A stretch of DNA of 63,839 nucleotides, counting the filler, from Kipferlia bialata (Eukaryota), in assembly GCA_003568945.1 (NCBI GenBank). It is 5 parts of 5 records of this genome, joined end to end, with 100 filler letters (N's around TTAATTAATTAA, not from the genome) between each part and the next. Parts side by side here need not be neighbours in the genome. Positions count along the whole stretch, not along the records: positions 1 to 16,571 come from BDIP01000591.1; 4 more parts are not named here. One strand, given 5' to 3'. Positions 1,932-46,510 of the stretch are shown here, in pieces. Within the stretch, counting starts at the first letter, position 1; each line of letters starts with the position of its first letter. The notes beneath the pieces are model-generated. The model saw nothing but the letters and a program-made list of their open reading frames with translations. It was not told the origin of the DNA and did no database searches. Position numbers and translations under genes: made by a program.

Positions 1932-2004
1932 TGTTGTGTGTTGTGGTTTATGGGTGAAGAAGAAGCGTGTGACGTCAGTGGCCACTGTTCACCGATGGTC
2001 TTGG

Positions 2005-2040
2005 CACACCCTTTTGGCAAAAAGACACCACACCCTTTTG
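2005..2040 (+). promoter_or_regulatory. Direct repeat CACACCCTTTTG x2 in a divergent intergenic region; candidate promoter element
   Basis: Exact 12-mer at 2005-2016 and 2029-2040, between head-to-head ATGs at 1931 (-) and 2174 (+). A similar motif occurs upstream of other starts. Confidence 0.35.
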
Positions 2041-2173
2041 TGATTCTTTTTGTTTCGATGTTGGAGTCTACTCTCTCTCCATCACTATACGAGCACTTCT
2101 GAGCACCAATATACCGTCCCCCTCACCTACACCCTCCTTTACCTGTAGCTGGGTACTGTGTGGTGTGTGAGAG

Positions 2174-4808
2174 ATGGGTGACCGTGCGTCTAACCGTACG
2201 TATCTGGCCGGCCACCCCGAGCTAAAGGTACACCTACTGCACTATCACTATAGTACTCTCTATAGTATTCCATGCTGATGTATGCTCATCCCCCAGGTGT
2301 TTGTGACCTCAATGGTGGCAGCCCTGATCTCTAGGCGGCCTGATGACCCCCAGAGCTATATATCTGAGTGGGTCAGGACCCCTGGTCTCTGTGACCACAT
2401 TGCTAGACAGGTATATACTATACACACATAGTGAAACATTCTACATTGCAGCCTGACATAGGGTGCTATGTGTATCTGTCTTTGTGTGTGCTACCAGTCT
2501 TTCTGGTATCTACCCTTCTTCTCTGCATGCAATGTTGCCAGGCAGGTGTATAGTGTAGACTTACTATACTAACTCCCATCCAATACTGTGCACCAGACAC
2601 TAATATCGCTTTCTCTATACTTTACAATTAGTGTGTACGACTTCTCACTCAGCATCAGTATCAGCATCTACCACTTCCCACTCTGACTCACCTGCAGAGA
2701 GTATATTTAGTTAGTATTGTGTATATGTATATAGTTTAATAATAATAGTATTACATATATATTAATACATATATGTATACATATGCATGTGTATATATAC
2801 CTTTGCCTCTTTATTTATAGGTATGAGCAGGCAGCTGGACAGACCTCAACCAGAGGGGCATATTCTCTTCCATTATATAGGATCACATAGTATATAGTAT
2901 ACATCAACTAATGTGTTACTTATATATAGGTGGGAGCAGGAGATATGTATAAATGTCTATGAATCCATCTTTACCTCATCATCTCTTATCCTGTAGGTCG
3001 GTGCTGGTAGCTGGATAGACCTCCTCAAGCAGAGAGGTGTGTACGTTGACCCAGAGCCAGAGCCGGAGCCCACACCTGAGCCATCAGTGCCGGAGAGCGA
3101 GGGAGAGGCCACTGAGGAGGTATATATATATATTATATACTATTGTATATCGATAGATATATATATATATATATATATACCTGAACATCGGCACCAGAGA
3201 GCGAGGGAGAGGCCATTGAGGAGGTATATATCACATATATCATATATGAAAGACCAAGGAAACGGATAAACGATGGTAGTTGTTAATGTTGTCTAACTCG
3301 CAGATTTCAGAGGCCTCTTCTGACGAGGTTGCTCTGTCCAGGTCGGGGTCTAGGGGACCCAGTAGGCCCGGATCTAGGTATGTATATAAATCAATGTCCT
3401 TTCATATTTTCTTATCTCGCGACAGATGAATCAATATCATTTCTATTTCTCATAACTCTCCATTCTCGCTACAGGCTAGGGTCTAGGTATGGAGTGGACT
3501 TCAACACCTAAGCATTGAAATCTGACTCCTTTATGTGTTTCTTATACCAGGCCAGGCTCCAGGAGCATGAGGCGGGGCAAGAGCATGGGGGCCATAGCAA
3601 GGTATACATTGTATAGTAATATACCAACTATTGTGCTTATATACCCCTTCCTTTCTCTCTCAATGTGAGCATGAGGTGGGGCAAGAGCATGGGGGCAATA
3701 GCAAGGTTAGTATTGGGATGTATGTGAAATGCATATTGTTATTATACCCAAAGCTATTTGTTAGTGTTACACTGCTATTGATTATGTGGGGCAAGAGCAT
3801 GAGGGCCATAGCAAGGAAAGAATACATATATTTATACCGCTCCTCTCTCCATGTCTTCCACCTTTTCCCTCTCTCATAATGTATATGTGTGTCTTTACAT
3901 GATTCTTTTTCATATGGATTCCGTCTCTAATCCTGCAGGAGGGGCAGCACTCTCTTTGGTACAGAGAGCACAGGGAGTATGTCAAGGTATGTTCAGTGAT
4001 GTATCAGTACATTCTTTTACCGGCTCGGGAGGCTATATCCCCCCCCCCCCCTTCCGACCATCCCCCTCCTCGCATATCCATTTCATTCCAAGAAGCGGGA
4101 CTCTCCTCTGGCTCTCACAATGGCAACACTAGCTCTCTGTCTTCTGCTAACCAATAGGCGTGGTAGCACTCTCCTTGGCTCTGACACTGGCAACAGTCGC
4201 TATACGCTCTCTCTCTATTTATCTTTTTGTCTTACCCATAGGCGTGGCAGCACTCTCCTTGGGTCTGACAATGGCAACAGTGGCTGGATGCGGTCTCTCT
4301 CCCTGCCCTGTGTCAGGGACAGTGGCAGAGTGGTCATGGAACAACTGAGTAATAGCCTAAAGTATAAGGTATGTATATATATATATATATATATAGTGTA
4401 ATATAGTATATATATAGTATAATGTGGAACATAAGTCTATGTACATTTGTATATATTCATTGTTTCTAAGACAGTGGCAGAGTGGTCATGGAACAGCTCA
4501 GCAATAGCCTGAAGTATAAGGTACATATCGGTATATGTATATTGTGTCTTGTCATTATTTTTGCTAAGCATCAGGATACTAACACACCCTTCTTCTGCCT
4601 TGTGCCTGACCTGGCTACTATGGCATACAGTGCCCCACTCGCTGTGGCACGGTTAGCGGCGTCGCTAGCACTCTTAGGTTCATTGGTGTATATATATATT
4701 GGGGTGTATACGTATGGCATTCAGTGCACCACTGGCTGTGGCCAACCTGGCAGCATCACTTGACTTGATAGGCTTCACCCAGAAGGACCATGTGGATGAC
4801 CATGAGTA

Positions 4809-4859
<51 letters not shown>

Positions 4860-5515
4860 CCATATTCTAATTATTAACCCTAGGTGGCGGTGTCTTCACC
4901 CAGAAGGACCATGTGGATGACCATGAGTGCGAGGATGCAGTGCCACTGATACACGTTCAGGTGTGTATATAGATATAGTATTTATACTATATATATATAT
5001 ACTTAGTGTATACTATGTAGTGTTGTCTTCAATTTGTACAGTACCGCACCCCTCTTTATTCTTACCTTACCACCAGGCCGGCAACCTCCTATGTCCCTAC
5101 CCATCACCCACAATCATCGGGGGAGACACAGGTACATAGAGTGTATATATAGAGTGTATATATATGTGTATACTAGTACATACATATGAAATATTCAACC
5201 TCCTCTGCCCCTAACCATCACCCACCATCATCGGGGGAGACACAGGTATGTATAGTGTGGATATCATCTTGTTTTCACCAGAGCACATAGATATATGTAC
5301 TATATAATATATGAATAGTATAAAACACTATATACTGACCTCAGGTAGTGGTGAATGGGACGACACCGCCACCCTCGGATGTATAGAGCACATAGATATT
5401 ATAAGTATACTATACTATAACAATGTGTATACTTTATAGTACTAATACCCAGGAAGCGGTGAATGGGACGACACAGCCACCCTAGGGTGTATAGAGCACA
5501 TACCCCTGACTATAG

Positions 5516-5546
<31 letters not shown>

Positions 5547-6181
5547 TACTAACCTATAGGCAGCACTGAATGGGACGACACCGCCACCCTCGGCTGTATA
5601 GAGCACATTGATATTATATATATATCCTATACACACTGACCTATAGGCAGTGGCGAGTGGGATGACACAGCGACCCTTGGGTGCATAGAGCATATAGACA
5701 TTATAAGTATACTATACAATATATATATATTATAGTACTAATACCCAGGAAGCGGTGATTGGGATGACACAGCCACCCTAGGCTGTATAGATCACATGGC
5801 ACTAGTAGTATTATATATAATAATAATATGTATATATATACAGTACTATACTAATGTACAGGCAGCGGTGATTGGGACGACACTGCCACCCTTGGGTGCA
5901 TAGAGCACATGGCAGCCCTGGCCCCATGCATCAGTGGCATAGGATACATGGAACTATGCTATGGACTGAAGGTATATATATAGTGTATATATATATATAT
6001 AGTATGGCAGCCCTGGCCCCATGCATCAGTGGCATAGGATNNNNNNNNNNNNNATAGTATGGCAGCCCTGGCCCCATGCATCAGTGGCATAGGATACATG
6101 GAACTGTGTTATGGACTGAAGGTATATTATATAGTGTATGTCTATATATATATGTATATACTCTTTCTGTCATCATACTCC

Positions 6182-6227
<46 letters not shown>

Positions 6228-9200
6228 GTATCTACCCTCAGGGCGTTGTGGACATGTGGCCTGACACACTCTTTGTGGCATCACGGTCTCTCTCCGTCTC
6301 TCTCTCTCTTTGTATTCTTCTCTGTATATGTGTACTATATACATGTCTTACTCTAGGGTGTAGTGGACATGTGGCCGGACACCCTCTTTGTGGCATCCAA
6401 CCTCAGGAGCAGCAGAGTCGCCATGTCAATGGTAAGCAGTGCATATATGTATATGTGTATGTATATACATGTATATGTATCTGTATACAAAAGTATCCAA
6501 CCTCAGGAGCAGCAGAGTCGCCATGTCGATGGTATGTATGAGGATACCTATCTCTCTCTCTCTCTCTCTCTCTCTCCCCCTCCATATCTCTGTCTCTCCC
6601 TCTGCACCTTTATTAACGGAGAAGGAGGAAAGAATATGAATAATATATAAATTGCTCGATACATGTATATATATACATACCTCACCCCCTAGGCCATGGA
6701 GAAGGAGGGCAGGCGTCGGTGGGGAGTGCCAGAGGCACCGCCATGGCAGGTATATTGCTTATTGTCAGTACATATATATATATATTATATATATATATGT
6801 GTGTGTGTATGTATGTATAATTCTGTATTGTGTTCTTTTGGTGGGTAGTGCCAGAGGCACCGCCATGGCAGGTAGGGACAGATATATGTATATGCATACA
6901 CAAGTGTAATATCAATATGGCAGGTATATATAATAACTGCGCATATTGTCAGTATATATATACATATATACTTATATATATATATTTCTAGATTCGGTGG
7001 GGAGTCCCCAGAAGCACCGCCCAATCGGGTATGGGCAGATCTTCATTTGTCAGCAAGTTATACCTCCTTGTGTTTACTCACTCTCCTTCTGGAAGGTGGT
7101 GATGACAAGGCCGATCCCCCCCCCCCCTCTCTCTCTCTATGTATATGTGTATTATTTAGTACATATCCCCAGGAGGGTGATGACCACCGGTGTCTCCCTC
7201 TGTCTCTCTGTCATTGGACTTCAATTATGTATAATGTATCTTAATATCATTCACATCCAGGAGGGTGACGATGACAATGCCGACAAGTCCCTCAAGCCAT
7301 CGGCCTCTGCCACATCACTGGACCTGGGGGTGGATGAGGTATATAGTGTAGCATATAGTGTATATAGTATTATGTGTATTGTATAAATAGTATATGTAGT
7401 CATATAGGTATTAGTGTATTACAATAGTGTTTAGTAGCCTTCAGCCTCTGCCACATCACTGGATCTGGGGGTGGATGAGGTATATATATATATATATATA
7501 TTGTATATAAGTATAGAGTGTATTGTGTATTCTATATGCATTAACTATCTGCCACATCACTGGACCTGGGGGTGGATGAGGTATATATATATATAGATTG
7601 ATGTATATAGTATATGTGTATATGGCTGGGTGTATTAGTATATATGGTATATACATTGTCTAGCCATCGGCATCTGCCACATCACTGGACCTCGGGGTGG
7701 ATGAGGTATATATATATGTATGTATATAGTATACAGTATCTATAGTGCAATGAGTATATAGTATACTCAATGCATTATCAAGCCATCGGCATCTGCCACA
7801 TCCTTAGACCTGGGGGTGGATGAGGTATATACTGTAGCTTATAGTGGATATAGTATAATGTGTATAGTGTAAATAGTAGATGCAGTCATGTAGCCATAGG
7901 TATTTGTGTATTACTATAGTGTATAGTGTATAGAGCCTTCAGCCCCTGCCACATCCTTAGACCTCGGGGTGGACGAGGTATATTCTGTGTATTGTATATA
8001 TTTATGTATATGCATGGTATATGTACCACTGGATCTATACATACACCATCTAAATCACCAGATTCCCCTCTCCTCCAAGTGGGTAGGGGGTGATGACTGT
8101 GTTGCCTATCCATGTATATACTATATATATACTATATATATATGTCTAATACCAGATCCTCTTGTCCTCCAAGTGGGTAGGTGTTGATGACTGTGTGGCC
8201 TAATATATAGTATAGATATAGTATAGATATACCACCGTATATATATGTATATACTCTTCGTCTAATACCAGATCCCCCTCTCCTCCAAGTGGGTAGAGGG
8301 TGATGACTGTGTGGCCCAATTATAATACCACTGTATATCTTTCAATATATACAAGTGTCCCGCTGTATATATACTATTCATCTAATCCACCAGATCCCCC
8401 TCTCCTCCAAGTGGGTAGGGGGTGATGACTGTGTAGCCGTATAATATACCATTGTGTATAATATACCATTGTGTATAATATATATATATATATGTATCCC
8501 TGTATATATCTATATGCTAGTCTAATACCAGATCCCCCTCTCCTCCAAGTGGGTGGGTGGTGATGACTGTGTGGCCTTGTTGGGCTGTGAGAACGTCAAC
8601 CCTAACATCCCAAACGTCTACCACTTCCTGCCAGTGCTGCACAGGTATCATTGCTCAATAATTATGTATGTATATATGAATGTATTTATACAAGTATCAG
8701 AGTATATTAGTGTATACTACTATATATACTAGTATATACTATACCCTAAAGACTTCCTGCCAGTGCTGCACAGGTATCAGACTCTCTTGACACACTATAC
8801 ACCCATTAAGCCTATATTATTCGGTACTATACAAATATATCCATCTGGGTCATTCTTCCCTCACTTATATATTCCTGTTCCTCTGTGTACTTCCCTATAT
8901 TCACTGTTAGGAAGTCTGCCACGGTTACTGTTGTCCTGTCATGTCTCTTTGTTAGTATATTATACTACATATCCAGTATTACTGAATAATGTATACAGTC
9001 ACTCACTATTAGGAAGTCTGCCACCGTGACCGTTGTCCTGTCCATGCTTTACTATATATATATATATATATATATATGTATACATCTATATATATATATA
9101 TATATGTATACATCTATATATATATATATTCTGAATATATAATTAACAGTTGGATCTATCCTTGTACTCATGCGTAGGAAGTCTGCCACCGTGACCGTTG

Positions 9201-9407
9201 TCTTGTCTATGTTATCACAATGTCATCGTATACAAACTCTGGTTATTTCTATACCTTGAACTTACTTTAATAGTATGTAATCATGAGTCTATTCTCACCC
9301 ATAGGAAGTCTGCCACGGTTACTGTTGTCCTATCTCTGTTGAGCCCAGACATACCAGCCATAGACACAACAACCATGCCAGACTATTCAGGTATACATAC
9401 ATGTATA

Positions 9408-9444
<37 letters not shown>

Positions 9445-12400
9445 AGTGTATTGGCTATGAATGGTATTCTACGCTATGGTCCAGACATACCGGCCATAGA
9501 CACAACTACCATGCCAGACTATTCGGGTACAGTGTGGTGTTTACAATAATATTCCATCATGGTTCATTCAACAACATTCACAGTCATATGTACTGTTCAG
9601 GTATACATGGACCGCATTCATTATAGTATCTGGTGTCATTTATTCACTCACATCCAGGCAACGTGACTGCCCCGACAGGGGAGTCCATCGGAGGCACCAA
9701 CGAGTTCTGCCAGGTATTGATACCACACCAGCCTCGTAGAATAGTTATGCACATGTCTCCAAGTGTAGAAGTATTGTTAGTATCTTATACAAGGTCGACC
9801 CCACCGGTGGAGATGTGTTTGAGATCACTAGGAGGGCACTCCTAGGCACAGTCACGATGCTAAGTAGGCTGGGACTGGAGGTCAAGGGTATGGGTAGCAT
9901 ATATTGTATACTATATGTACATACTAATGTACTAATGCACTCCTGGGGACAGTCACTATGCTCAAAAGACTAGGGCTGGCTTATATGACACTAATATTTA
10001 CCAAAAGCGCTTGTGTCGTGTCTGACACTGTGACATATATACACATTTGTCATAATTGCAATGTGCATGTAGTGCATGTATACATATCTGGTGTTCTGCT
10101 CCTGTCTGGCAATGTGATCTCAGCCGATGTCATTTAATATTCATATGGAATTTTTTTAACATTGTATATGTATATCTGTATATATGTGTATTCATCTTCC
10201 TGACATTAGACTTTGGTGTCCTGTTCCTGTCTGACAATGTGATCCCAGCCGATGTGATAGCAGACATACAGTTCCTGAGGCCTAGCTTAACAATGGGAGT
10301 GCACGTGCTTGGGAGGTTTGTATGTGTATATATGTATTCATATACCATACTATATGCATTTCCTAAGGCCGCACAGAGCGATTACAGCACTAATGCTAAT
10401 ATTGCTTGGCGTGGTTTTGCATATATCCATTGCTGACCCCAGGTACAGTGCCCTCAGCAGACGGTCCAGGTTCTACATGATTGAGAGTGGGCACTACACG
10501 AAGGTGTGACATGTACTATTTTGAATCTATAGTATATATATCTAGTGTATATTTGAAAATTGAATCTATAGTATATATTGTACTGGAATGAATACCCTCT
10601 CACCGCCTAGGCCGATCAGCTAGCCATGCATGCCCTGAGTGACATTAGTGTACATGTATATATAGAGAGAGTATATGTATAGTATATGTATTTATATTCT
10701 TATCCTCCTTCATCCTAGGCTGAACAGCTGGCCATGCATGCCCTGAGTAACATTAGTATATATATATAGGTGTGTGTGTAACTCGATTCACACATATATG
10801 TCTCACCCTAGGCCGAGCAGCTGGCCATGCATGCTCTGAGTGACCTCAGAGTGTGTGAGGCATTCGAGAGAGGTATGTATATATACAGGGTACCACAGTG
10901 TATATGTGGTTAGTATATATGGATACAGATAGGTATAGTGATAGGTAATGCCCTGAGTGACCTCAGGGTGTGTGACGCATTTGAAAGAGGTATGTATATA
11001 TATTTATATATACGAATATATACGTATATGATATAGGATATGATGGGGGATAGTGAATGCTCTCAGTGACCTCAGGGTCTGTGAGGCATTTGAGAGAGGT
11101 TTGGAGTGATCTACATTATTGCACCATCTCTTTCTGATATGTTCCCTTACCCCTCAGGCATCGACATGCACCACAAATCCTGACACACTGTGTATATTGT
11201 GTATATAACCACTATATCAATTTATGTATATATATATATATGTATATATATATGTCTCTGACCCCCTCAGGCATTGACATGCACCACAAGTCGAGGTTCC
11301 CATTCCCTCCATTCCTGGCACCATACTCTGCTAAGGTATATATATATATATGCAGGATGTAGCATTCAATGACATAACACTATATATTCTTGTATATATA
11401 TATATGCTATCTCTGAATACCCGGCTGATGTCTCTGAGGTATGATACCTATATTTTCCATATTTACACCATATATATACTCGATACCATCTTATGTATAT
11501 TTAGTGTTCTATATGTATTGCTCTCTCTACTATATTTATTAGTATACATATGCTATCTACTCTGACCCCCAGGGTGATGTCACTGAGGGCGAGAGAGACG
11601 GAGCACCCTGTGAGTTCAGGTACATAATAGAGTATAATATGTATATTATATAGTATATGCATATACGAGAATGTAAGTGTATACATACAGAGAGGGACGG
11701 TGCCCCCTGTGAGTTCAGGTACATCTCCGTGTATAGTGTGTATTTATGAATTTCGATACATTTCTTTCATTGTGTTTTATCCTTTAGGAGCAGTGGCCTC
11801 CGCACCCCCTCCTTCGTCGTTGACACCTACTCTGACACACACCCTCTTTCTATCTGCATATATAGTATAGTTTCTAGTATTGCACAATCTCATAATAGGA
11901 GCAGTGGCCTCCGCACCCCCTTCTTTGTGGTGGACACATACTCTGACACTCCCTTCTCTCTCTCACTCTCATATATATATACGTAAATAGTATATGTACT
12001 GGTAATTCCTTATATCCAGGTCAAGTGGTCTTCGCACCCCCTCCTTTGTGGTGGATACCTACTCTGACACCCCCCTGTCCACCACCAATGACCCAGACGT
12101 GTCATCACCATACATGGTGGTGGCCATACCCACTATTAGAGGTAGTTATATATATTCTAGAAGTCAACATATGCTGAGTGTTTTCAACACATAAATGATT
12201 GACTAATCCCTTACCTCCTAGCCTCTGGCTCCAGTGAATCCATTGACGGCATCATTGTGTGTTTACCTGTATTGTTTGTACACATGTATACATATTAGTA
12301 CTCATTCCAGCCTCCGACAGTGATGATGCCCTTGACGATGTCAACACCCTGATATGTGTATATACCAGTATACTCATATATATAGTGTAAATGAATTGTA

Positions 12401-12464
12401 AAAGTGAAGTATTGACTCCCAGCCTCCGACTCCGATGCCCTCGATGACATCAATACCCTTACGC

Positions 12465-12501
<37 letters not shown>

Positions 12502-15500
12502 GCTATTAGGTCCATTACTAATGCCAGCCTCCGACTCCGACGATGCCCTGGATGACGTCAACGAAATATATATTGGGTATATTATATNNNNNNNNNNNNN
12601 NNNNNNNNNNNNNNNNNNNNNNNNNNNNNNNNNNNNNNNNNNNNNNNNNNNNNNNNNNNNNATGTCTAGTTCTAATGCCAGCCTCTGACTCCGACGATGC
12701 CCTGGATGACGTCAACACCCTGATACCTGCCCAGAGGGTGCAGTACCCATCACTGCCATTAGGGCCATTGACACCTCTAATCACCTCTGTCCTCAGGTAC
12801 TAGAACAATACATAAATGTGTATGTATAGTGTTATCCCCTAGGGTCACTGACACCACTGTTTACATCAGTGGTCAGGTATCAGAATTAGAAGTTCTCACA
12901 TCTATATATTAGTATATTGTACATGCTAATGTATTGTAATTATTATAGTGTTTGCCACTCTTGTACTAATACCCTCAGAGCACACATCAACAGAACACCG
13001 GGAGACCTACACGTGCCGCAGCTGAAGGTATCATGAGAATGCATCAAATATGTGTATATTTTCATCCTACAATACCAGTTTGACCCTTTTCGACTTCATG
13101 CCTCTCTCTCGCTCTCGCTCTCTCTCTCTCATTCTAACTGTATAGGTCGATCCAGGCTGTGCCCCCTTCCACTGTGACTTCATGGCACCCTCGTCTCTCA
13201 TGGCCCGTACCACCACACCCCCACTGCCTACCCTATTGACACACCTATGCCACCAGGTATATATATATTTAATACCAATGTATGCGCTTCCTACATGTAT
13301 ATACCGTCTCGATGTTCTAGTATTATGGCCCGTACCACCACTGCCCACACTCCTTACACACCTGTGTCACCAGGTATGGATATATATATGTATATATGTG
13401 TGTGTATATTATATATATATACGTACCACCACGCCCCCACTGCCTACACTCTTGACACACCTGTGTCACCAGGTGAGCATAATTTTGATTGGTATTGAAA
13501 CTAGAGTTTCCGTACTTACTCTCTCTCACCCTCATGCTGGTTGTAGCGCGTTGTCTCTTTTGCTTCAGGCCCCATCTCTCTCTCTAGTATGTGTGTATAC
13601 TATATTGTTAGTATTGTTTAACACATACTATGTGTTATGTACTACATATCTTACTCTCAGGCCGGCCAGTGCGTTGTCCCCTCCTTTGCCCCTGCACCCT
13701 TCTCTCTCTCTCTCTCTCTCTCTCCATATCTCTCTTTCTTATATGTACATACTGTGTGTATTAACGCTTAGGCTGGTCAGCGTGTTGTCCCCTCCTTTGC
13801 CCCTGCCCCTTCTCTATCTCTCTCTCTCTCTCTCTCCAATGTGAATGTGTATACTTCCCCTTACCCTTAAGGCCGGTCAGCGTGTTGTCCCCTCCTTTGC
13901 CCCTGCCCCCTTCTCTCTCTCTCTCTCTCTCTTCCATATATATGCTTGCTCTATATGCTATTCTTACTTCAAGGCTGGTCAGCGCGTTGTCCCTTCCTTT
14001 GCCCCTGCACCCTTCGAGACACCGGCCACACCTGCACTGGGTAAGAGAAGGGCCAATCGAGGGGCTAGGGCTAAGGTATAGCGTAACTATTCATATATGA
14101 GAATTTATGAGAATTAATTGAGGAGGGCCAATAGGGGCGCCAGAGCCAAGGTATATATCGCGTGATATATGTAAATATTATTTGTATTTAGATAGTATAA
14201 CTACACCTGTATTGGAGCTATACATATATGATATACTAACTGTCAGGTCTCGGTTGAGTCTGCCTTCTCTGAGGAAGAGGAGGAGGAGAGAGAGAAGGAG
14301 AAGGACAAGATGCGCATCCCAACCTTTGTCACATGCTTGTCACAGACTATGCTGCTCAAGGACAGCATGTTTGGACCATTGTATCAGGTAGAGTAAACGT
14401 TACCGTGTAGCTTCTTTGTAATCTTACGCTAATGCTCAAGGATAGCATGTTTGGACCATTGTATCAGGTAGAGTAAACGTATAGTATATACTTACTAGGT
14501 TTTGCCGTGTAGCTGCATAGTTTTCATATTCTTACGCGAAGGCTGTCGTGAGGCACCACCCCCACGAGTGTGAGTATGTCAACCCATCTCTTAAAGAGGC
14601 CATCGACTATGAGGGAACACAACCCACAGTGTGTGACGGCAGAGACATTAGGTACCATATATATACACACATATTGACTACTCTTGACTCTTTTGGACTT
14701 TCTCTGACTTTCTTTAGGAGGCACAGGGTTCATGTACCTGCAGATACAACCGCTAGGTCCTTTAGAGAGACCTTCCCAGGGTGCTTCAGCCCAGATGCAG
14801 CTCTGTTCTTCGGTCGTACTTCGCTAGGTAGATATGTTTATATACCACTTCTAGCCAGTATTTCTCTAGGTTTGGATGTGTGTGAATTACTCTATTTAGT
14901 TATTTTCGGATGGGTAGATAGCTGTGAACTGTCACCAAGATAATCTATCCGTGTATGTATCATTCTCACTTCCAGCCAGACTCCTGACTACCCGTCTCTA
15001 TACTCAATATGTACATTAGTATTGGCAGGTATAAATGTTTCTTCCTTGTATTCCTTGTAGTTTCTAACAGTCCAGCCAGACTTCTAACAGCCCTTGTGTC
15101 CATCCTCAAGAGGCGCCTCAGCACAAAGACACAGGGCATGGTGAGTAAGACATGCATATTCTATATATGTTATATCACTCTCTTATTCAAGGTTACTCCC
15201 ACCCTACCTGACACCCCTCTCCTTGCTGGTGTAGGACTGGTCTTTGACTGTGCCAACCCAGACAAGTCATACCTGTACAACCTGACAAGGATGGGGCAGG
15301 AACTATTCCTAAAGGTATTATGATATATTATATTGGTACATTAGTTTATATATGTATATATATGACTAGAACAAGTCATACCTGTACAACCTGACACGGA
15401 TGGGGCAGGAACTGTTCCTGAAGGTATGGTGTACTCATATTGGTGTACTCATAATTGTCTTCGAGTTATGGTGTATACTGTGTTATGTATGACGCGTATA

Positions 15501-33235: not shown

Positions 33236-33335
33236 GNNNNNNNNNNNNNNNNNNNNNNNNNNNNNNNNNNNNNNNNNNNNTTAATTAATTAANNNNNNNN
33301 NNNNNNNNNNNNNNNNNNNNNNNNNNNNNNNNNNN
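33236..33335. other. Artificial contig linker
   Basis: N-run + TTAATTAATTAA + N-run. Confidence 0.98.
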
Positions 33336-33628
33336 NTTTGATTCCGCCATAAGTAATTCAGACTGACAACTGGAGGATATCCCCCCCCCCCCCTCTCTCT
33401 CTCTCTCTCCCCACCCACATCCCCACCCACATCAGCTCTCTCTCTATAGATCCCAGTATTCATGCAAGTATCCTCTCTCTTTCTCTCTCTCTCTCTATCT
33501 AACTAGAGATACAGTTTCATTTCCAACTTACCCCAGATCCCAGTCAATGCAAGTCCCAAAGTTAGGACTGCTCTCTCTCTCTCTCTCTCTCTCTACATAC
33601 ATCATTGTATTTCTCCCTCACACAACAG

Positions 33629-36955: not shown

Positions 36956-37958
36956 TACAATTCCATGCAGTGCTACCATTTCTTACGCGAAAGAACAAGG
37001 AGAATGTTGCATCGAGGGCAGGATGTAGGCACTCGCCTCGTCATACACTCTAAAGAGCCTATCTAACATGTACTTTTAGAATGGAATAGAGTGAGAGCAG
37101 AGTGGAGGCAGTCATCAAGCACATTGAGGGCAGGATGTAGTGTCTCATTATTGTCCCTCTCCTGAGCAATGATAGTGAGTCTGACATCAAGCACGTCGCA
37201 GGGTGCATGTTGCCACTTGCCTAGTCAGATTTACTATCTGGAGGAGACTTTGTGTAGGGTATAGAGTCACTCTATTCCCACCAGATAGTCAAATATAGGG
37301 TGAGAAATGAGAAGTGAGACATCAGGAATATAGAGGCCAAGATGCACAATTCTAAAGTGGACCACCATCATTTCTTTGAACTTCAAAGATCTGTTCTCAA
37401 CATACAAATGAGAACTTCAATTTCCACTCTTGTGAAATAGTGTCTGAGGCTGTCGTCTAGAAGTTCTAGACTATTACATAGAGGGAAGTATGTAGTTCCT
37501 TCCTATTGTTCGTACTTTCCTCAGCAACGCACACAGTGTAGTGTTACCCTCTGTATCGTGGTGGAGTAAGACTAGGCTTTCAGCACTGTTGTTAGTGTAT
37601 ATAGGATCACAAATTGTGACACAATCCATATTCTAACACATTTGAGTATAGGAAAGCTTCCGGGTTATATCATGCCCATTGGGCAGTACTTGAAAGAGTT
37701 TGCAAGTTATCAATGTTGAAATCAATAGATCAATGTACTAGGTGGACACTGTCCCTAGTAGGGACTCCCTACGGGTTATCTAGTTCTGCTGTCAACCCTG
37801 CCACAGGCCAGTTAGTGTGCCCTCTAGGTGTCGGTGCAGATTCTCTCTCTATCAGCATACTGACATATCCCAAAAGCATTTGAATTGAAAACATGCAATC
37901 TATTCCTTTCAGAGCTGAGTACGTTGTGCGGTCAGTATCGGTTCAAACTGTGACTTAC

Positions 37959-38389
37959 CATGGCATACACTCCCCCATCATACCCTCTTCTCATGGGGGG
38001 TGTCGGGACAGCAGCACGAGGCAGCGCCCACCTGGCAGTAAGAAGGAGAGAGAGGAATGAAGAGAGAGGGAGAGAGGTGAGACCCAGTTCATCAACGGCA
38101 TGGCAAGCAAGACGCGGCGCACGCACACATATATACAAAAACATGCACATATATCTATAAATACACCGATGTGTATCAATGTCAATATGTATCATATGTG
38201 TACCTATACTCATTTCCCTAGGTGTCTGAGTGATGGATATATATACACATGCACCTATCTATCTATACGTATATACGTATCCAATGAATACCTGTACTCC
38301 TCTCCATTGGTGTCTGAGTGGTGGGGGTAGAAGAGCTCGGGGTTCATCCGCAGGATCAGTCTAGAGTTAGAGACATAAGGGTCCAAAGA

Positions 38390-38433
<44 letters not shown>

Positions 38434-39507
38434 AGAAGAGGGGTTATCCGTAGGATCAGTCTGGTGTTAGAGACATAAGGATCTAAATGAGAGAGAGAGA
38501 GTAGAAGATGGTGTTAGACATGAATGAACACATTCAGACTATTAGATGAATTAGATACAATTTGACACATTGGAGACACATGGGTCCAGAGAGTGAGAAA
38601 GAAATAGCAAGAAGAGTCACTTGATGTTGCAGGACGGCTGCGTCTCTTTATTGCGCTCTGTCTCTCTAAACATACATCTATACGTATAGAGTATGTACCT
38701 GTTGTTGCAGGACCGATTTGTCTCCATCTCGTAGTCATTGACACTCATCATAAGGGAGTGGCAGCCAAAGGGAACAAGGTCCCTAGTGTGAGTATACATA
38801 AACACATAGATGAGTATATATATATATACATAATGAGAGAGAGAGACACACTCATCATAAGGGAGTGGCAGCCAAAGGACACAAGGTCCCTAAGCGTAAG
38901 AGGAGAATAGTATATATATTTGAATGATACATACTAAGTACTCTGTAGAGATTTACCCTACCTGCTGTGCATGCTCTTAATATCCACTGATCGTATACAC
39001 ACATATATATATATGTGTGTGTGAGAGGGAGTTCCATACACTAGATATAGAAATATCTATCTATATATACATACTCAATATATACCTAGCCATCTGCATG
39101 CCCTTAACATCCTCCCCCAGAGGCATGTAATCTATCCTAACAAATACTAGATATACACTTTAATACTATATACTAGATACAAGTACATATAGACTCTCTA
39201 TAAGTATAATATATTATATATACCTAGCCATCTGCATGCCCGTGACATCCACCCCAAGTGGCATACCCTCTATCCACACACCCTGCACGGTGTCATAGAC
39301 ATGCAGGGTGGGATCGGCACCTAGAGTAAGAGATAGAGAGACAGAGTAAGAGAGAAAGGGAGAGAGAGAGAGAGAGAGACCCTGCACGGTGTCATAGACA
39401 TGCAGGGTGGGATCNNNNNNNNNNNNNNNNNNNNNNNNNNNNNNNNNNNNNNNNNNNNNNNNNNNNNNNNNNNNNNNNNNNNNGGAAGAGATACTTATAT
39501 AATTATC

Positions 39508-39541
<34 letters not shown>

Positions 39542-42119
39542 GACATGCAGGGTGGCGTCTGAACCCGAAATGAGGAAGAGATATTAATATATATCTAGAG
39601 AGAGAGAGAGAGAGAGAGAGAGTCATAGACATGCAGGGTGGCATCTGAACCCGAAGTGAGGAAAAGACATATATATATATATATACACAGAGAGATAGAG
39701 AGAGAGAGAGACCCGGCACTGTGTCTATGCAAGGTGGCAGGGGTCTGATACATACACATATGGATCCATATATATATGGAGATATATATATATACCTGCC
39801 ACTGTGGTGCATAGTCTCCCAATAATATATGTGTATATACATATATATCATATCAATATATATAATGATATATATATATTTACATATAGTGAGAGCGAGA
39901 GAGAGACAGTCTTGTACCTGCCACTGTTGTGCATAGTCTCCCAATGATGTATGGGCCGATTGGCACAAGGGTGGAGGGGGGCTGGTGGTAAGTGTATATA
40001 TGTTCAAGTATATAATACATATGTCTATATGGAGATGAGAGAGAGAGAGAGAGAGATGGGCACTAGGGTTGAGGGGCCTGGGGCTTAATTACTGTATACT
40101 CATGGGAAGAGAGAGAAAGACAGAGAAAGAAAGACAGAGTGAGATATATTAGTGATTCCGTATTTACGGTGGGCAAGTCAATGTATACTCATATACATGG
40201 AGAGAGAGAGAGAGAGATACCTGGTGGGCAAAGGGACCAGTTGTGGCTAGCTGGGTGACACCATTCCTAGGGTCAGTCAATTCCTTATTCACGTACTATA
40301 TCTTGAATACATATGTGTACACATACCTACTGCTGTACAGCCAGTGTGACACTCCCTTTCGGTCACTCTCTAGGAACAGGTGCATGGAGTCCTCACAGAC
40401 ACACACCTAGGGGTCAGATACATACACTTCAACAGTGCATACTCATATATGGTAACATGTATTAGTATACAAATATGACAGAGAGAACAGGTGCATGGAG
40501 TCACCACAGACACAGACCTAACTGTCAGAGGTGTGTATATATAGGCAGGGTTTTTATACGTATAACACAGTATACTCTAGGAACAGGTGGATGGAGTCAC
40601 CACATACCCATACCTAGGGGTAAGACATATATATGGATACATAGACACACACTTAAGAATACTTCTACAAGTACTACTTAGACGGATAACTCTGTGGTCG
40701 CGAGACATGTATTATTATATACAAATAATAGCGAACGAGAGACTCTCGTGTTGAGTGGCTAGTGAGCGCACGTAACCAACTGATATGGCAACTGGCTATT
40801 ATACTGCTATCAATGGCCGTACCGAGCATACTCTCGTGTTGAGTGGGAGTGCCATGTCTGCCTTGGTCCAGCGGTGCGTGTCGGGGTCCATGCACCAGAC
40901 CTGATGGTTAGATGTATATACTATATATACTATATGACACATATATGTACAGTATGTATGTCATAGAGTATGTGTTGTGCCACAGTGCACCACACCTGGT
41001 TGTTAGATACGCAAACTACATATATACATCCATATATTTCGTTGTATACATATACTATAGTGACTAACCTCTGTCTGTTCCTTGTCGCTATAGGCAGTCT
41101 CCTTAAGCTTGCCGAATACCCAGAGCTGGGGTAAGGAATCCAATATGATAGTATTCATACGTACTAAAATATATACAAATACAGTATAATACTATGCATA
41201 TATATATATGCCAAAGACCCAGAGCTGGGGGTAAAGGACACACATACATGGATGGAGGCAAGAGACGCAGAGACGTGTCTCCATATTGTGTGTCACATAC
41301 ATATATGTACACACATTTACTACTAGATATACCTAATCCTCGTACTATGCCACCTTGACACCAATGTATAGATCAATAGTACATGCATATTTACAAACAG
41401 TACAAAATAGTATATATACCTATATATATATATATATATAGAAAGAGATAGGGAGATAGATAGAGAGAGAGAGAGAGATAGTATACCTTGTCATCAAACG
41501 CTGCCCCCTTGACACCTATCTGTTCATATAGTATGTTGCAGTATATTGTATGTATGTAACCACAGTATATATGGATGAACACACACCTTGTCCTCGAAAT
41601 CTTCCACCTTGATCCCCAGGTCACTCATGGCTGGTGGCCACAGACCCTTGTCCAGATCACCCTCTGCTAGTGTCAGGTATATAAGTATACTCCTATGATC
41701 TAGCGTATACATACACATCAATGTTTAATGTGGCAGATATGAGTGGTAGTATGTACACTATATATATATATACATATACACTATGGATGCACCACCTGGT
41801 ACCACCTCCGCCCGAGAGTGTATTATTAATATATGTATACACTCGATATATGTATATATTCTCTCTATATACATATAGTACCATATATGCCTCACCTGGT
41901 ACCACCTCCTGCCACTCACCAAGGGCCAGGTCATACTCTATATATACATACATACATATATACTCTAGATCATATATATATATATATATAGATATATATA
42001 TATACTACATATATACACTACACCCCTCACCTGGTACCACCTCCTGCCACTCACCAAGGGCCAGGTCATATGATAGAAGGGCATTCCTGAGTTAGATCAT
42101 GGTATATATATATGTATGG

Positions 42120-42153
<34 letters not shown>

Positions 42154-45100
42154 CAGAGACAGAGAGAGAGGGCCAGGTCATATGATAGAAGGGCATTCCT
42201 GAAGATAAGGAGGAGTTAGGTAGAGATATATACATTCCTGTGTGTAAGGACAAGGAGATATATATATAGAGATAGACAGATAGTGAGTGCGATAGAGCGC
42301 TATTCTCAGGCCGTATCCTGATACTTACACTATTTTAAACTAATGAAGCGAGGGAGAGAGGGGGAGAGTCCTTACATCTCCAATACATATATATATATAC
42401 ATACATATATATATAGAGAGAGAGACTGCTTGCCTTATGACATCTCTGGGGTTGTATGTTGGCACCATCCCATTGGGCCCAGATCTGAAGCCCCTGACAC
42501 CCCTCTCCTCATCTGACTTGGACATGTCCTCGACCTCGGGTTAGTATACATATATATGTATGGTTGTACACAGTAGACATAGACATACCATATGTATATA
42601 TATGAATATAGATCTAGTAAATACAAATATGCAGCATAGCACTACACCGCTAACCTTCCCTCCAAACACATAGACCCTCCCACAGCATAGTACAATATGG
42701 GGGATACATATGTGTAGAGTAGTATATATGTTGGATATGGTTATATGGTGTACCTTCCCTCCAAACACATAGACCCTCCCACAGCAGTGGACGCCCTCGA
42801 GACCCACCGCCTGAGTGTCAGTGTCATATATAGATATACACATAGCTATATAGTATCTGTATCATATACATACATATATATACACTAGTCATATACCCAC
42901 TAGTGCAAGCCCTCTAGACCTGGGTGTCAGTGTCATACATAGGTATATATATGAAAATTGTGTAGATTGAATATTAATACAGTATAATACCAGTATCATA
43001 TATATATATATCTAGTCTAGTGCACGCCCTCGCCACCTAGTGCCTGAGTGTCAGTATATATATATGTATGTATACATATGTGTATATGTATACATATACT
43101 GCCCAGTCTCTGACTCAGGCCGGTATGCACGGGTATATCCAATTGTATATATATGTATATACATAGTATATTACACCTGACACAGACCAGGGTGCACAGG
43201 GATAGGGTCACAGTGCAGCATGCGGTGGGTAGGGGTACTAGAGCCTATACTGGTGAGGGAGACGATGCCTACTGCCTAGAGTGAGTGAAGAGGGTAGGGG
43301 GTGAGACCGTACTGATCTGGGGGGACACTCATCAGTTTTAAATCGAAGTATGTAGAGGGAAGGATAGAGGAAAAGAGAGTGAGAAGTTACCTGAAGTGGC
43401 TCGTCAGTGTGCATAAGGGGTGAAGGGAGAGGCAGAGAGAGAGAGAGAGAGAGAGTACTGACCTGCGCTGGCTCGACCGGGTCAGTGGGTCTCTGGAACT
43501 CCTTGGGTCTGGGGGCCTAAGGTAAGTAACCCTTGTATATATATTTTATAGATAGTAAATGACTTACTAAATTACTCTATGTATAATACATTACCCTAGT
43601 AACCATGAACAGTGACCCATCAAGGAGTGCACACACCACAGGCGTCAGTGATATTATAATTATTCTATATACAAATGTATTACACTATACAGTTCTATAT
43701 ACAGTATATATAGTATAGTATATGTACCCTTCTAACCATGAATATACTACCGTCAGGCAGTGCACACAGCACAGGTGTCAGTGATACTATTGTATCTTAC
43801 TATAAAGCAAGTACTAAGTATAGTGTTGATTGTCTATATAGTATATATACTCTTTGTGTACCCTGGTAACCATGAAGAGTGACCCGTCAGGGAGTGCACA
43901 CAGCACAGGGGTGAGTGAGTGGTTGATGACTGGGTCACAGTCAGAGAAGGTGGCATGGGTGTCGATGATGTGAGAGACCCAGTTCGCCTAAGTTAGTAGG
44001 GTATGGATATATACATAGAGAGAGAGAGAGATACTATCTGAGATTGACGTATGGGATGTATGTATATATATGTATATATATATGAGACCCACTAAGCCTA
44101 ACATGCTAGTATCTCTCTATGCGATATAATGGAAGACAGAGTCCCTAACGTAGTATACCTATACAGTTAACGTAGTATACCTATACAGTTAAAAGAGTAT
44201 AAGGGTGTCTAACTGGTGTACCGTATAGTACAGTGGATATAGTACATAGTATAACGTCAACTGTGTCTAACCTGCTGTGTAGCGTTGGCTCCCGCTGCCT
44301 TGCACTGCTCCTCGTGGTTCCCTCTCTCTCCCTCTCCCTTTACCTCTCCCTCTGTCTCTGCAGCGGCACCGTCTCCATGCACCAGGTGGTAACCCACACC
44401 CTCTTCCGCCTAGCGTGAGGTGTAATAAAGAGTTAGTATGAAGGTAAAGGCATATATATATATATATGCCTATTAATTATACCCTGCTAAGGTACCATAT
44501 AGTGATACATATACATTGATAGTCTGTACAGTGATACCTCATACAGGGCATAGCACCTGCACCCCTCTAATGCAGTACTATATAGAAGAAACACTTAGTA
44601 TTATATACTATACATACATGCTAGTAGATACATATATATATATATATATATATAGATAGATAGATATAGTGATACCTCATACAGGGCATAGCACCTGCAC
44701 CCCTTTGTCGCACACTCTAGCCTGTCGGGGCCTGGGTTAGTATATATATATATGTATATATGTATATACTCTATATATACACAACATACACTATATGTGT
44801 ACTATATACGTATCACTCTGTGGCACACTCTAGCCTGTCGGTACCTGGGTTAGTGTGATATTCAATATTCATATGTACAACATATACTATATGTGTACTA
44901 TATATGTACTTATCTTATGCACACTATAGCCTGTCTGTGCCTGGGTTGGTATATATAATAAAAGATATATATGTACTATAGTATATCTCTACACCATATG
45001 TTTACAATACCGTAAGTATATATGAATACATTGAATGCAGATCATATATGTGGGTGGGTTAGTATGTATATGTATACATTGTGCTCCAGTGAGCAACCAA

Positions 45101-45388
45101 TACTAACATAATAAGAATACATACATTTATATACACAGACAAACACAGATCTACACTACTAATATTGAACATAAATGTATAATCGTAACTCAACAATATA
45201 TCTCCTACCTTCAGGTCTCCAGTCTGAGCCTGATCTCTCGTACATGGCACACACCAGGGCATGCAGGGTGGGATAACGGTAATTGTACAACTAGGGTTAA
45301 TTATCATAGAGAAAGAGAGAGAGAGAGAGAGAGAATACCAGTGCATGCAGGGTGGGGTAGAGGGGGCCATATAACTAGTGGTAAGGGG

Positions 45389-45419
<31 letters not shown>

Positions 45420-46075
45420 CAGTCATACACCTGAGATAAGACAGTGAGAGTGGTCCACCTTCTGTGTAGGCTGACCCCAAAAGAATATACACACGCTTAT
45501 ATATATGTGTACGTATACTCCTCTCTAGGTACGCAGATAGATACAAAGAAGACATGGTGGAGTAATTGTATATCATACATCGACCCACCCCCTCTGCCAG
45601 ACCAGACACCTCTCTCGGCACCACTGTCTGCTGACGGGTAGCGGCGGCATCCATGTCCCTACTATTAAGTATAATACATAAGTAACACAAACAATAAAGA
45701 ACTAATACATATATATAGAAATAGTGCAATAATCATACACTATACTATTCTCCTGACGGGCAGCGGCGGCATCCATGTCCCTATCACTTAGCTATTAAGT
45801 GTAAATATTTGTATATATATTACATTAAGTATCCAAATAACAAGTATTAGACGGGCAGCGGCCTCCTGCATATCCCTACCATAAAGTATATCTTTTAAAG
45901 ATTTATCATATAGTATCTATATATACGTATTCCTAATATTTAATACTATATATATATATATTATTATTAAATGTATTTACTGAGTATTCATAATGACAAT
46001 TGCAACTCTACAACACAACACATAGATACCGGTACCTCTGCATGTCCATGTTGCGCTGCATTAACTGCTGGATAC

Positions 46076-46106
<31 letters not shown>

Positions 46107-46473
46107 CCTATATATATATATACATATACCTATTGCGCTGCATTAACTGCTCGAGCTCAAGCATCTGGGCCTGGATACCGGCATCAAACGCTGCATCACT
46201 CACACCGCCAAAGAAGTCATCCCCGCCGCCCATGCCCTCTCTCTCTCTCTCTCCCTCACTGAAGCTGTCGCTCTCACTCCCGTCTCTCAGACCTGGCTCA
46301 CATGGCCAGCCGGAGAACTGGGTAAAGCCCTCTCTCTCTCTCTCGCCTCCATCGCGCCAGGCTCTGAACCCACCCTCCTCTGCCTCCATGGCTTCCATGT
46401 CGAATAGGACGTCCTGAAGATCAGTATATATACAGGATTACATTTAAATATACACGAGTATATACTATATTAT

Positions 46474-46510
<37 letters not shown>

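What the first reader, a model, noticed from the sequence alone, without database searches (positions are those of the whole stretch)
8911..12725. Echo copies differ almost only synonymously, including TCN<->AGY serine switches
Seen: real ACG GTT ACT GTT GTC CTA TCT (9305) vs echoes ACC GTG ACC GTT GTC CTG TCC (9013) and ...TTG TCT (9178), all TVTVVLS. Real TCA AGT GGT CTT CGC..TTT GTG GTG GAT (12020) vs echo AGC AGT GGC CTC CGC..TTC GTC GTT GAC (11788). Real GAC TCC GAC GAT GCC CTG GAT GAC (12682) vs echo GAC AGT GAT GAT GCC CTT GAC GAT (12311). Established: neutral intron DNA should mutate equally at all codon positions, and TCN<->AGY needs multiple substitutions. Inference: the echoes were or are under protein-level selection. 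They could be captured fragments of divergent alleles (unequal crossover), snapshots of former functional exon versions, gene-conversion donors, or occasionally translated segments.
Basis: partly seen in the sequence, partly recalled or inferred. Interest (0 to 1): 0.92.

Follow-up and report, generated by a model that had tools for sequence, protein, structure and literature searches.

The report
Introns stacked with retired exon ends
In a free-living protist, many introns hold stacks of half-exon copies that still spell nearly the same protein with different codons and are skipped in the one transcript checked; they are likely retired exon ends from very divergent alleles, which would make one genome a record of its species' allelic diversity.

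Summary
Confirmed and larger than reported. The window is Kipferlia bialata. Around 68 modelled exons of three genes I found 110 intronic half-exon copies at 60 of 136 exon ends. Acceptor halves lie upstream, donor halves downstream, about 111 nt apart.

Echo versus real dN/dS is 0.145 (0.11-0.19), and 0.083 in the finding. The right null (echo neutral, real exon constrained) gives 0.51-0.58 for 0-fold/4-fold divergence; observed 0.17. Read-derived DNA contigs carry six echoes unchanged, and an RNA-type contig skips them.

Echoes do decay (6 stops, 7 frameshifts, GC-to-AT-biased amino-acid changes), so current translation is unlikely. Synonymous differences are GC-neutral, clustered and mosaic, and intron flanks are mostly unrelated. 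Best reading (0.6): exon ends of divergent working alleles, retired and refreshed by exon-limited unequal recombination. A toy model fits only with synonymous allelic diversity of about 0.15-0.3. That is untested: no second allele was seen in 921 bases.

Single splice-junction duplications are known (human F7, CBS). The scan noted similar duplications in a sea-urchin gene; that note mentions no coding signature.

The parts
2174..16377 (+). Host gene (KIPB_003179), 36 modelled exons, 1015 codons open, cut off by the contig end; N-terminus like RIIa docking domains; distant full-length relatives P0003-P0005
8911..8940 (+). Acceptor-side echo 3 of exon 9305 (AG in register)
9013..9042 (+). Acceptor-side echo 2 of exon 9305; 4 synonymous, 0 amino-acid changes in 9 codons
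9178..9213 (+). Acceptor-side echo 1 of exon 9305
9305..9390 (+). Real exon (KSATVTVVLSLL...)
9481..9526 (+). Donor-side echo of exon 9305 (GT in register)
9937..9979 (+). Downstream echo of exon 9794-9887; 7 synonymous, 1 amino-acid change; donor not in register
10089..10133 (+). Decayed acceptor-side echo of exon 10210-10315 (AG lost); a weak one at 10016-10033
10611..10651 (+). Acceptor-side echo 2 of exon 10812
10719..10756 (+). Acceptor-side echo 1 of exon 10812
10812..10872 (+). Real exon, with echoes on both sides
10948..10989 (+). Donor-side echo 1 of exon 10812
11054..11098 (+). Donor-side echo 2 of exon 10812
11158..11179 (+). Acceptor-side echo of exon 11271-11335
11573..11619 (+). 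Real exon; joined to 12020 in the RNA-type contig
11690..11718 (+). Donor-side echo of exon 11573; skipped in RNA; present in DNA contig
11788..11843 (+). Acceptor-side echo 2 of exon 12020 (AGC for TCA); skipped in RNA; present in DNA contig
11899..11958 (+). Acceptor-side echo 1 of exon 12020 (AGC for TCA); skipped in RNA; present in DNA contig
12020..12141 (+). Real exon; at 12131-12139 the RNA-type contig differs from the assembly at 5 of 9 letters (two synonymous codons, one T-to-V)
12222..12260 (+). Heavily decayed acceptor-side echo of exon 12682 (below the detection score, seen by eye)
12311..12354 (+). Acceptor-side echo 3 of exon 12682 (AGT for TCC); 6 synonymous, 0 amino-acid changes in 14 codons
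12423..12466 (+). Acceptor-side echo 2 of exon 12682, with an in-frame 3-nt deletion
12528..12562 (+). Acceptor-side echo 1 of exon 12682, beside an assembly gap
12682..12796 (+). Real exon; the RNA-type contig continues in this version
12840..12876 (+). Very divergent donor-side echo (GSLTPLFTSVV for GPLTPLITSVL)
5325..5914 (+). Five acceptor echoes plus real exon start as two related three-unit blocks; paired echoes 5345 and 5647 differ at 10 sites, all synonymous, while the spacer behind them differs at 5 of 53
7292..7998 (+). Five donor echoes; the block real+spacer+echo 1 recurs as echo 4+spacer+echo 5 (spacer 11 of 97 different; paired echoes 7 of 44, 6 synonymous)
37105..37140 (+). Echo of a last exon's end including its stop codon (real copy 36920-36955), in another gene
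37959..49370 (-). Second echo-rich gene (27 modelled exons; kelch-like by eye), dN/dS 0.345
60497..62845 (-). Third echo-rich gene (5 modelled exons; CCCH zinc-finger-like by eye), dN/dS 0.122

Best explanation
The echoes are intronic half-exons that keep their splice site and reading frame and are skipped in the transcript checked; they are likely the working exon ends of other, very divergent alleles, retired into the intron by recombination that can pair only at the short exon islands. Steps: (1, shown) each unit is about 37 nt of exon end, its AG or GT, and about 70 nt of intron. (2, inferred) a first unit arises when repair from a homologue runs out of exon homology into an unrelated intron and is joined back out of register. 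(3, inferred, with two block-level examples) an echo of one chromosome then pairs with the real exon of another; unequal crossover stacks the two arrays and turns a working exon end into a new echo fused to the old junction, and short conversion tracts overwrite the exon part of echoes but not their spacers. (4, shown for two introns) splicing uses the outermost sites, so the stacks are harmless; this implies pairing of sites across the exon (inferred). (5, shown statistically) after retirement echoes decay neutrally, but only a little (at most about 0.05 changes per site) against 0.28 at 4-fold sites, so they read as protein-constrained.
For: 0-fold/4-fold 0.17 against a null of 0.51-0.58. 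Splice dinucleotides kept like constrained sites: AG 44 of 52, GT 44 of 49. Two classes of difference: synonymous ones are GC-symmetric (91 against 99), amino-acid ones run GC to AT in the echo (39 against 20, p 0.018), are mostly private (59 single, 8 shared; synonymous 60 single, 47 shared) and are near random in BLOSUM score. No echo carries the real intron flank: even the 11 echoes identical in their codons match the flank for a median 3 nt. Shared junctions: end points differ by 4.95 nt within arrays against 11.3 shuffled, minimum 7.8 of 2000 shuffles. Mosaics: synonymous changes cluster (74 adjacent pairs against 55.3, p 0.0002); 6 of 12 informative site pairs are incompatible, 1 of 7 at up to 6 nt and 5 of 5 beyond. 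Two repeated multi-unit blocks as stacking of two arrays predicts. Toy model: refreshing from other alleles at theta 0.5 and 15 times the mutation rate gives 0.309/0.052/0.17, against observed 0.283/0.047/0.17; refreshing in cis never fell below 0.41 in 18 of 18 settings. The RNA-type contig of the same sample has a different, echo-like end of exon 12020. Metamonads lack NHEJ and fornicates lack Rad51A, so homologous repair is thought to dominate (PMC8516963).
Against: No divergent second allele was laid at 80% likeness in the 921 bases tested (one sample, contigs, filtered). No other strain or close relative was found, so the required allelic synonymous diversity of about 0.15-0.3 is untested and would be extreme (comparison values recalled). 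No rise in decay with distance from the real exon (dN/dS 0.128, 0.215, 0.110 for ranks 1, 2, 3+): compatible with stacking, but no positive support. Gene B is less constrained (0.345). The four-gamete count is small and pairs are not independent; repeated mutation could mimic it. The model is a toy (150 chromosomes, lethal amino-acid changes, whole-tract conversion). Introns can be less variable than 4-fold sites (Paramecium), which weakens the spacer-against-echo contrast.
Confidence: 0.6

Rival explanations
1. Echoes are a maintained cassette reservoir: they are copied or promoted back into the working exon often enough that selection purges amino-acid changes from them while they sit in the intron.
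For: Paired echoes that share a junction and spacer differ only synonymously (10 of 10 sites). Exchange between echo and real copy is visible. Human CBS 844ins68 is proposed to convert its skipped copy back into the working exon (PMC2630376). The differing RNA exon end could be such a promotion.
Against: Two-way exchange in cis gave ratios of 0.41-0.73 in 9 of 9 settings, and adding back-conversion to the allelic model changed little. By inference the load on an echo is exchange rate times selection, which bites only when diversity is already very high, so this collapses into the main reading. Amino-acid changes look unselected.
Confidence: 0.15
2. Echoes are scars of one or a few old hybridisations or an allopolyploid event, left by repair between two divergent subgenomes, not by standing allelic diversity.
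For: Some tracts are nearly saturated (12840-12876: 9 of 11 codons changed; three serine switches), and divergence is overdispersed (20 echoes without a third-position change against 8 expected). The strain shows no divergent allele in the stretch laid.
Against: 12 of 106 variable codon columns show three or more synonymous states within one array, more than two parents give without repeated mutation. Decay is slight and similar across ranks, which suits continuing turnover. No paralogue of the gene among the candidates scored.
Confidence: 0.12
3. Echoes are translated part of the time through an unusual splicing or bypass route, so protein-level selection acts on them directly.
For: Low dN/dS, also echo against echo (0.154); splice sites kept.
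Against: The RNA-type contig joins 11619 to 12020 and goes on in the 12682 version. Its offset leaves only 71 nt beyond the 1800 modelled coding bases upstream, so no echo is retained there. Its run holds 0.12 of the words of 2000-11990, as real exons alone predict (1145 of 9961). Half-exons lack the partner site. 6 stops and 7 frameshifting indels of 9. Contigs drop rare forms, so rare use is not excluded.
Confidence: 0.05
4. Ordinary tandem duplications of the splice junction that decay neutrally while the real exon gathers synonymous changes.
For: Polarity and order are what harmless tandem duplication predicts: in 16 of 16 introns with both kinds, donor echoes come before acceptor echoes. 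Echo density follows TA-repeat content (Spearman 0.71).
Against: Simulated through the same detection step it gives 0.51-0.58 in 6 of 6 settings, observed 0.17. Young echoes should carry the real intron flank and do not.
Confidence: 0.03
5. Assembly artefact: pieces of different alleles or strains joined in tandem.
For: Three N gaps fall inside echo arrays. The exon end at 12131-12139 differs from RNA, and no DNA contig bridges 12089-12130, so one unit may be collapsed there.
Against: Two contigs built separately from run X1 cover 11545-12118 and 12089-12465 with 0 differences and similar depth, across six echoes and their unique junctions. X1 holds 0.95 of the sampled words of 2000-11990. Junctions have no long shared word that an assembler could join on; stops and frameshifts in echoes are not features of working alleles.
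Confidence: 0.03

Closest known systems
Human CBS c.844_845ins68 (PMC2630376, passages read)
   Same: A 68-bp duplication of an intron-exon junction; the distal site is used, so the upstream half-exon is skipped; proposed to exchange sequence with the working exon by gene conversion.
   Different: One polymorphic event whose skipped copy carries a harmful change. Here 110 copies at 60 of 136 exon ends in three genes, stacked up to five deep, with divergent synonymous codons and unrelated intron parts.
Human F7 intron 7 37-bp VNTR (PMC1557585, abstract read)
   Same: Repeat whose first unit spans the exon-intron border; the downstream pseudo-donors are silent and the most upstream one is used.
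   Different: F7 pseudo-sites are identical in sequence, units of a minisatellite, at one border. Here units are 67-193 nt, spacers are mostly unrelated, both donor and acceptor sides occur, and the exon part shows a coding signature.
Silent gene-conversion cassettes (trypanosome VSG, Borrelia vls, chicken immunoglobulin pseudogenes; recalled, no call)
   Same: Untranslated partial copies that keep frame and trade sequence with an expressed copy.
   Different: Those diversify a surface protein at one dedicated locus. Here the differences are mostly silent, the genes are unrelated ordinary genes, and the copies sit inside the gene's own introns.
Tandem mutually exclusive exons (Dscam type; recalled, no call)
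   Same: Intragenic exon copies with low dN/dS.
   Different: Those are whole exons with both splice sites and appear in mRNA. Echoes are halves and were skipped in the contig laid.

Membership tests
Splice-junction tandem duplication / border-spanning VNTR (CBS 844ins68, F7 IVS7) | Repeated unit spans an exon-intron border in direct orientation | tested here: met
   52 of 55 upstream hits are 5' halves (AG in register 44 of 52); 48 of 55 downstream hits are 3' halves, one more nearly whole (GT 44 of 49)
Splice-junction tandem duplication / border-spanning VNTR (CBS 844ins68, F7 IVS7) | Outermost site used, inner copies silent | tested here: met
   RNA-type contig, two introns only
Splice-junction tandem duplication / border-spanning VNTR (CBS 844ins68, F7 IVS7) | Units are copies of the same allele, intron part included | tested here: not met
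   Flank identity falls to near background beyond about 12 nt; 1 of 11 codon-identical echoes extends 20 nt into the flank; 4 of 231 spacer pairs within an intron score 20 or more
Splice-junction tandem duplication / border-spanning VNTR (CBS 844ins68, F7 IVS7) | Copy number polymorphic between alleles | tested here: inconclusive
   RNA exon end differs from the assembly at 12131-12139: second haplotype or collapsed unit; no other strain found
Mutually exclusive duplicated exons | Each copy is a whole exon with acceptor and donor | tested here: not met
   Only 1 of 110 nearly spans its exon (5196-5245); it lacks the AG and holds a stop
Mutually exclusive duplicated exons | Copies appear in spliced mRNA | tested here: inconclusive
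   Not in the one contig laid; contigs drop rare forms
Silent gene-conversion cassettes | Silent partial copies that keep the reading frame | tested here: met
   49 of 110 without an amino-acid change; 6 stops in 1259 codons
Silent gene-conversion cassettes | Segmental exchange between silent and expressed copies | tested here: inconclusive
   Clustering and 6 of 12 incompatible site pairs point that way; direction and rate unknown
Silent gene-conversion cassettes | Output is amino-acid diversity of a surface antigen | tested here: not met
   dN/dS 0.145; the host gene has distant full-length relatives, one with a weak RIIa match, below Pfam's cut-off
Silent gene-conversion cassettes | Programmed, directional conversion during growth | not testable with these tools
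   Needs clonal time series
Transposon-made introns (Introner) or Pack-type elements | A shared element family at unrelated loci | tested here: not met
   0 of 14134 spacer pairs from different introns score 20 or more
Intron gain by duplication of exon sequence (PMC3265369, search listing only) | The duplication creates a new intron out of coding sequence | tested here: not met
   Units carry pre-existing splice sites and lengthen existing introns: 51-426 nt without detected echoes (18 introns), 154-1193 with (46)

The most novel reading that the evidence does not exclude
Kipferlia runs a genome-wide exon-end exchange: recombination confined to tiny exon islands keeps archiving working exon ends of many deeply divergent alleles in the neighbouring introns and sometimes returns them to use. 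One strain's introns would then hold a fossil sample of a hyperdiverse population (synonymous diversity about 0.2-0.3), and this small-intron protist would have to choose splice sites across exons.
Probability: 0.35. Interest if true: 0.9.

Novelty: new variant of a known kind. Interest (0 to 1): 0.74.

Why it matters
Dead intronic copies should not look like coding sequence. Here they do, at almost half of the exon ends examined. If they are retired alleles, a single protist genome gives a direct read-out of allelic diversity, recombination tract length and the rate of unequal exchange in a lineage with no population data that I could find and an unusual repair toolkit. That bears on whether free-living metamonads recombine. 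It also shows a route of intron growth (64 echoes in one gene), offers hundreds of natural competing splice sites for testing exon against intron definition in a reduced spliceosome, and warns that echoes mislead assembly and gene prediction in this genome.

Tried and rejected
No whole genome was held, so no genome-wide count. Two scans of metagenome contigs, with P0002 and with the BOP1 exon, found no relative (192 and 190 pattern matches, none confirmed). A search with P0002 scored the 8000 best candidates and returned only itself. The run search listed no holder on record as RNA; X2 is a guessed RNA run. Rfam: 0 matches in the window. Pfam: no family above cut-off for P0002 or P0001. The RNA version of the end of exon 12020 is not elsewhere in the window (2 matches at 2 mismatches, 2.55 expected). 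12843-12876, first modelled as an exon, broke the frame and proved to be an echo. Nested insertion of whole introns with both flanks was rejected: donor and acceptor echo numbers are unequal in most introns. Stepwise nested splicing was rejected for the same reason. Transition bias as the cause was rejected: 4-fold differences are 89 transitions and 107 transversions, and nulls with kappa 4 still give 0.54-0.58. No correlation between flank similarity and third-position divergence (rho -0.09, p 0.39). Values for hyperdiverse protists could not be read: one search gave nothing relevant and the tables are images. Earlier scan notes for this genome and for look-alike stretches: none.


Full report
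Setting. The window is five contigs joined by linkers. A single exon of the gene around the finding matched one protein at 100%, KIPB_003179 of Kipferlia bialata, on a 16,571-base contig, the length of the window's first contig. K. bialata is a free-living fornicate with 124,912 GT-AG introns in a short-read draft, diploid by k-mer peaks (PMC5874029, parts 1-3 of 6 read; no echo-like feature is mentioned in those parts). I modelled the gene by hand: 36 exons, 2174-16377, 1015 codons, no stop. The public protein agrees except for a 12-nt microexon and the last exon. It has three distant full-length relatives in an unnamed library; one of them and a short fourth hit have weak RIIa matches below Pfam's cut-off. 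Nothing marks it as a variable antigen.

The observation. I aligned each of 68 modelled exons (36, 27 and 5 in three genes; the gene at 33.3-37.2 kb and the genes of contigs 2 and 4 were not modelled) to its two flanking introns with a codon-blind score. 110 hits passed a score that 15 of 4104 non-adjacent exon-intron pairs reach. They lie at 60 of 136 exon ends, in arrays of 1 (34), 2 (17), 3 (5), 4 (2) or 5 (2). Of 55 upstream hits 52 are the exon's 5' part, 44 of them with AG in register. Of 55 downstream hits 48 are the 3' part and one nearly the whole exon, 44 of these 49 with GT in register. Mean length is 36.5 nt (14-63) and unit spacing has median 111 nt (67-193). In 16 of 16 introns with both kinds, donor echoes precede acceptor echoes. 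One echo copies a last exon with its stop codon (37105), so the rule concerns ends of coding sequence, not only splice sites.

The coding signature. In 1259 aligned codons the mismatches by position are 72, 55 and 295; dS 0.377, dN 0.055, dN/dS 0.145 (bootstrap over echoes 0.11-0.19). By gene: 0.094, 0.345, 0.122. In the finding: 0.083 (18 echoes, 216 codons). Echo against echo: 0.154. 4-fold sites differ at 196 of 692, 0-fold sites at 114 of 2448. Simulated through the same detection step this null gives 0.51-0.58 in 6 of 6 settings; observed 0.17. The quoted codons are all correct; serine switches number three.

Real, and skipped. Run X1 (DNA by guess, perhaps the window's own sample) holds 0.95 of the sampled words of 2000-11990; X2 (RNA by guess, same sample) holds 0.12, matching the 11.5% that real exons alone give. 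On 11545-12465, the only stretch laid, two X1 contigs match with 0 differences across six echoes. One 3849-nt X2 contig joins 11619 to 12020 at GT..AG, past one donor and two acceptor echoes, and continues in the 12682 version, 8 differences from echo 12311. The same contig differs from the assembly at 5 of 9 letters at 12131-12139 (two synonymous codons, one T-to-V), and the DNA contigs break at 12089-12118 without a bridging record. Either the second haplotype has another exon end, or a donor unit is collapsed in the assembly; I cannot tell which. No divergent allele was laid at 80% likeness, which counts against high heterozygosity here.

Not selected now. Echoes hold 6 stops and 9 indels, 7 of them frameshifting. 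Amino-acid changes run GC to AT in the echo (39 against 20, p 0.018), towards intron composition (GC 0.37), are mostly private to one echo (59 of 67) and are close to random in BLOSUM score (-0.31 against -0.59). Synonymous changes are symmetric (91 against 99; GC3 0.635 and 0.627) and often shared (47 of 107). I read this as two layers: synonymous differences that arose while both copies worked, and a thin layer of decay after retirement.

Where the copies came from. They are not recent copies of their own allele. Flank identity falls to near background about 12 nt from the splice site, and only 27-30% of flanks beat the control's 95th percentile. The 11 echoes with no codon difference share a median 3 nt of flank with the real exon. 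Yet echoes of one array end at nearly the same exon position (4.95 nt apart against 11.3 shuffled), and 0-fold identity stays at 0.92-0.96 until 11 nt before the junction, then 0.84, 0.76 and 0.39. Two arrays contain a repeated multi-unit block. At 7292-7998 the real exon end, spacer and echo 1 recur as echo 4, spacer and echo 5; the spacers differ at 11 of 97 sites, the paired echoes at 7 of 44, six synonymous, and each echo shares a codon pair with the copy ahead of it in its own block. At 5325-5914 paired echoes differ at 10 sites, all synonymous, while the spacer behind them differs at 5 of 53. Synonymous differences cluster in adjacent codons (74 against 55.3, p 0.0002). Incompatible site pairs rise with distance (1 of 7, then 5 of 5, small and not independent). 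12 of 106 variable columns show three or more synonymous states. Spacers form no repeat family across introns (0 of 14134 pairs), so no transposon is implied.

Mechanism. These facts fit exchange limited to the exon part, from many divergent working versions. In a toy population model, refreshing or exchanging in cis gave ratios of 0.41-0.73 in 18 of 18 settings. Refreshing from other alleles reached ratios of 0.2 or less together with 4-fold divergence of 0.2 or more only at allelic diversity of about 0.17-0.3 and exchange at 15 or more times the mutation rate; one setting gave 0.309, 0.052, 0.17. Metamonads lack Ku-dependent end joining and fornicates lack Rad51A, so homologous repair and alternative end joining are thought to carry break repair (PMC8516963, section 8 and passages; its supplement with the K. 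bialata gene list was not seen). That makes repair from a homologue with unalignable introns a plausible source of first units; this step is inference. Use of the outermost sites implies pairing across exons (inference from two introns); K. bialata keeps 87 of 174 spliceosomal proteins searched (PMC6679479, passages). The weak link is the allele pool: no other strain or relative was found.

Comparison. It works like human CBS 844ins68 and the F7 intron 7 VNTR in geometry and splice choice (PMC2630376 passages; PMC1557585 abstract), and like silent conversion cassettes in keeping frame (recalled). It fails the test that units are copies of one allele, and it is not a mutually exclusive exon set. 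Searches for Kipferlia with intron or tandem duplication, for partial exon duplication with purifying selection (0 papers) and for duplicated splice sites or unequal crossing at exon borders listed no paper on this pattern, judged from titles and abstract starts; the library lacks most subscription papers. One earlier scan note reports splice-junction duplication in a sea-urchin gene; its few lines mention no coding signature, and I did not test it.

Verdict. Real, dense and not explained by neutral duplication. A new variant of a known kind of event, with an unexpected protein-coding signature best explained by retired divergent alleles (0.6). Interest 0.74.

Noticed in passing
window 15962-16064 and 16286-16377: The public protein KIPB_003179 ends DTVAALAEEYRIHTFTCIYRLL, that is, it uses the echo at 15962 as its last exon and stops in the spacer; the frame-keeping exon is 16286-16377 and the gene runs off the contig. 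Echoes can mislead gene prediction.
   Followed up: partly
window 12089-12141: The RNA-type contig has a different exon end than the assembly, and DNA contigs break here: second haplotype or collapsed donor unit.
   Followed up: partly
window, contigs 1-5: Near repeats are patchy: 3.9, 0.5, 2.6, 0 and 1.8 per kb; they track TA-run content (Spearman 0.71). Contig 2 has many introns but few echoes; contig 4 is mostly one long open frame.
   Followed up: partly
window 3475-3486: Probable 12-nt microexon with AG and GT, in frame, absent from the public protein.
   Followed up: no
window 42434 (minus strand): Probable GC-AG intron: the exon 42534-42434 keeps the frame only with a GC donor.
   Followed up: no
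window 6041-6053, 12588-12661, 39415-39483: All three inner assembly gaps fall inside echo arrays; the echo at 6004-6040 is identical to its neighbours and may be an assembly duplicate.
   Followed up: no
window 499-1110 (minus strand): BOP1/ERB1 gene (Pfam BOP1NT, E 1e-37), with a short acceptor echo by eye near 140-210.
   Followed up: partly
window 33600-36955: Gene with an AVHELGHWLGLRHC motif, archaemetzincin-like (label recalled, not tested); has echoes, one spanning the stop codon.
   Followed up: partly
window 52946-58645 (minus strand): 1899-codon open frame with no Pfam family, GC about 0.6, no echoes.
   Followed up: no
window 16616-16627, 33281-33292, 49929-49940, 60368-60379: Artificial linkers between contigs; neighbouring contigs are not necessarily adjacent in the genome.
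   Followed up: yes
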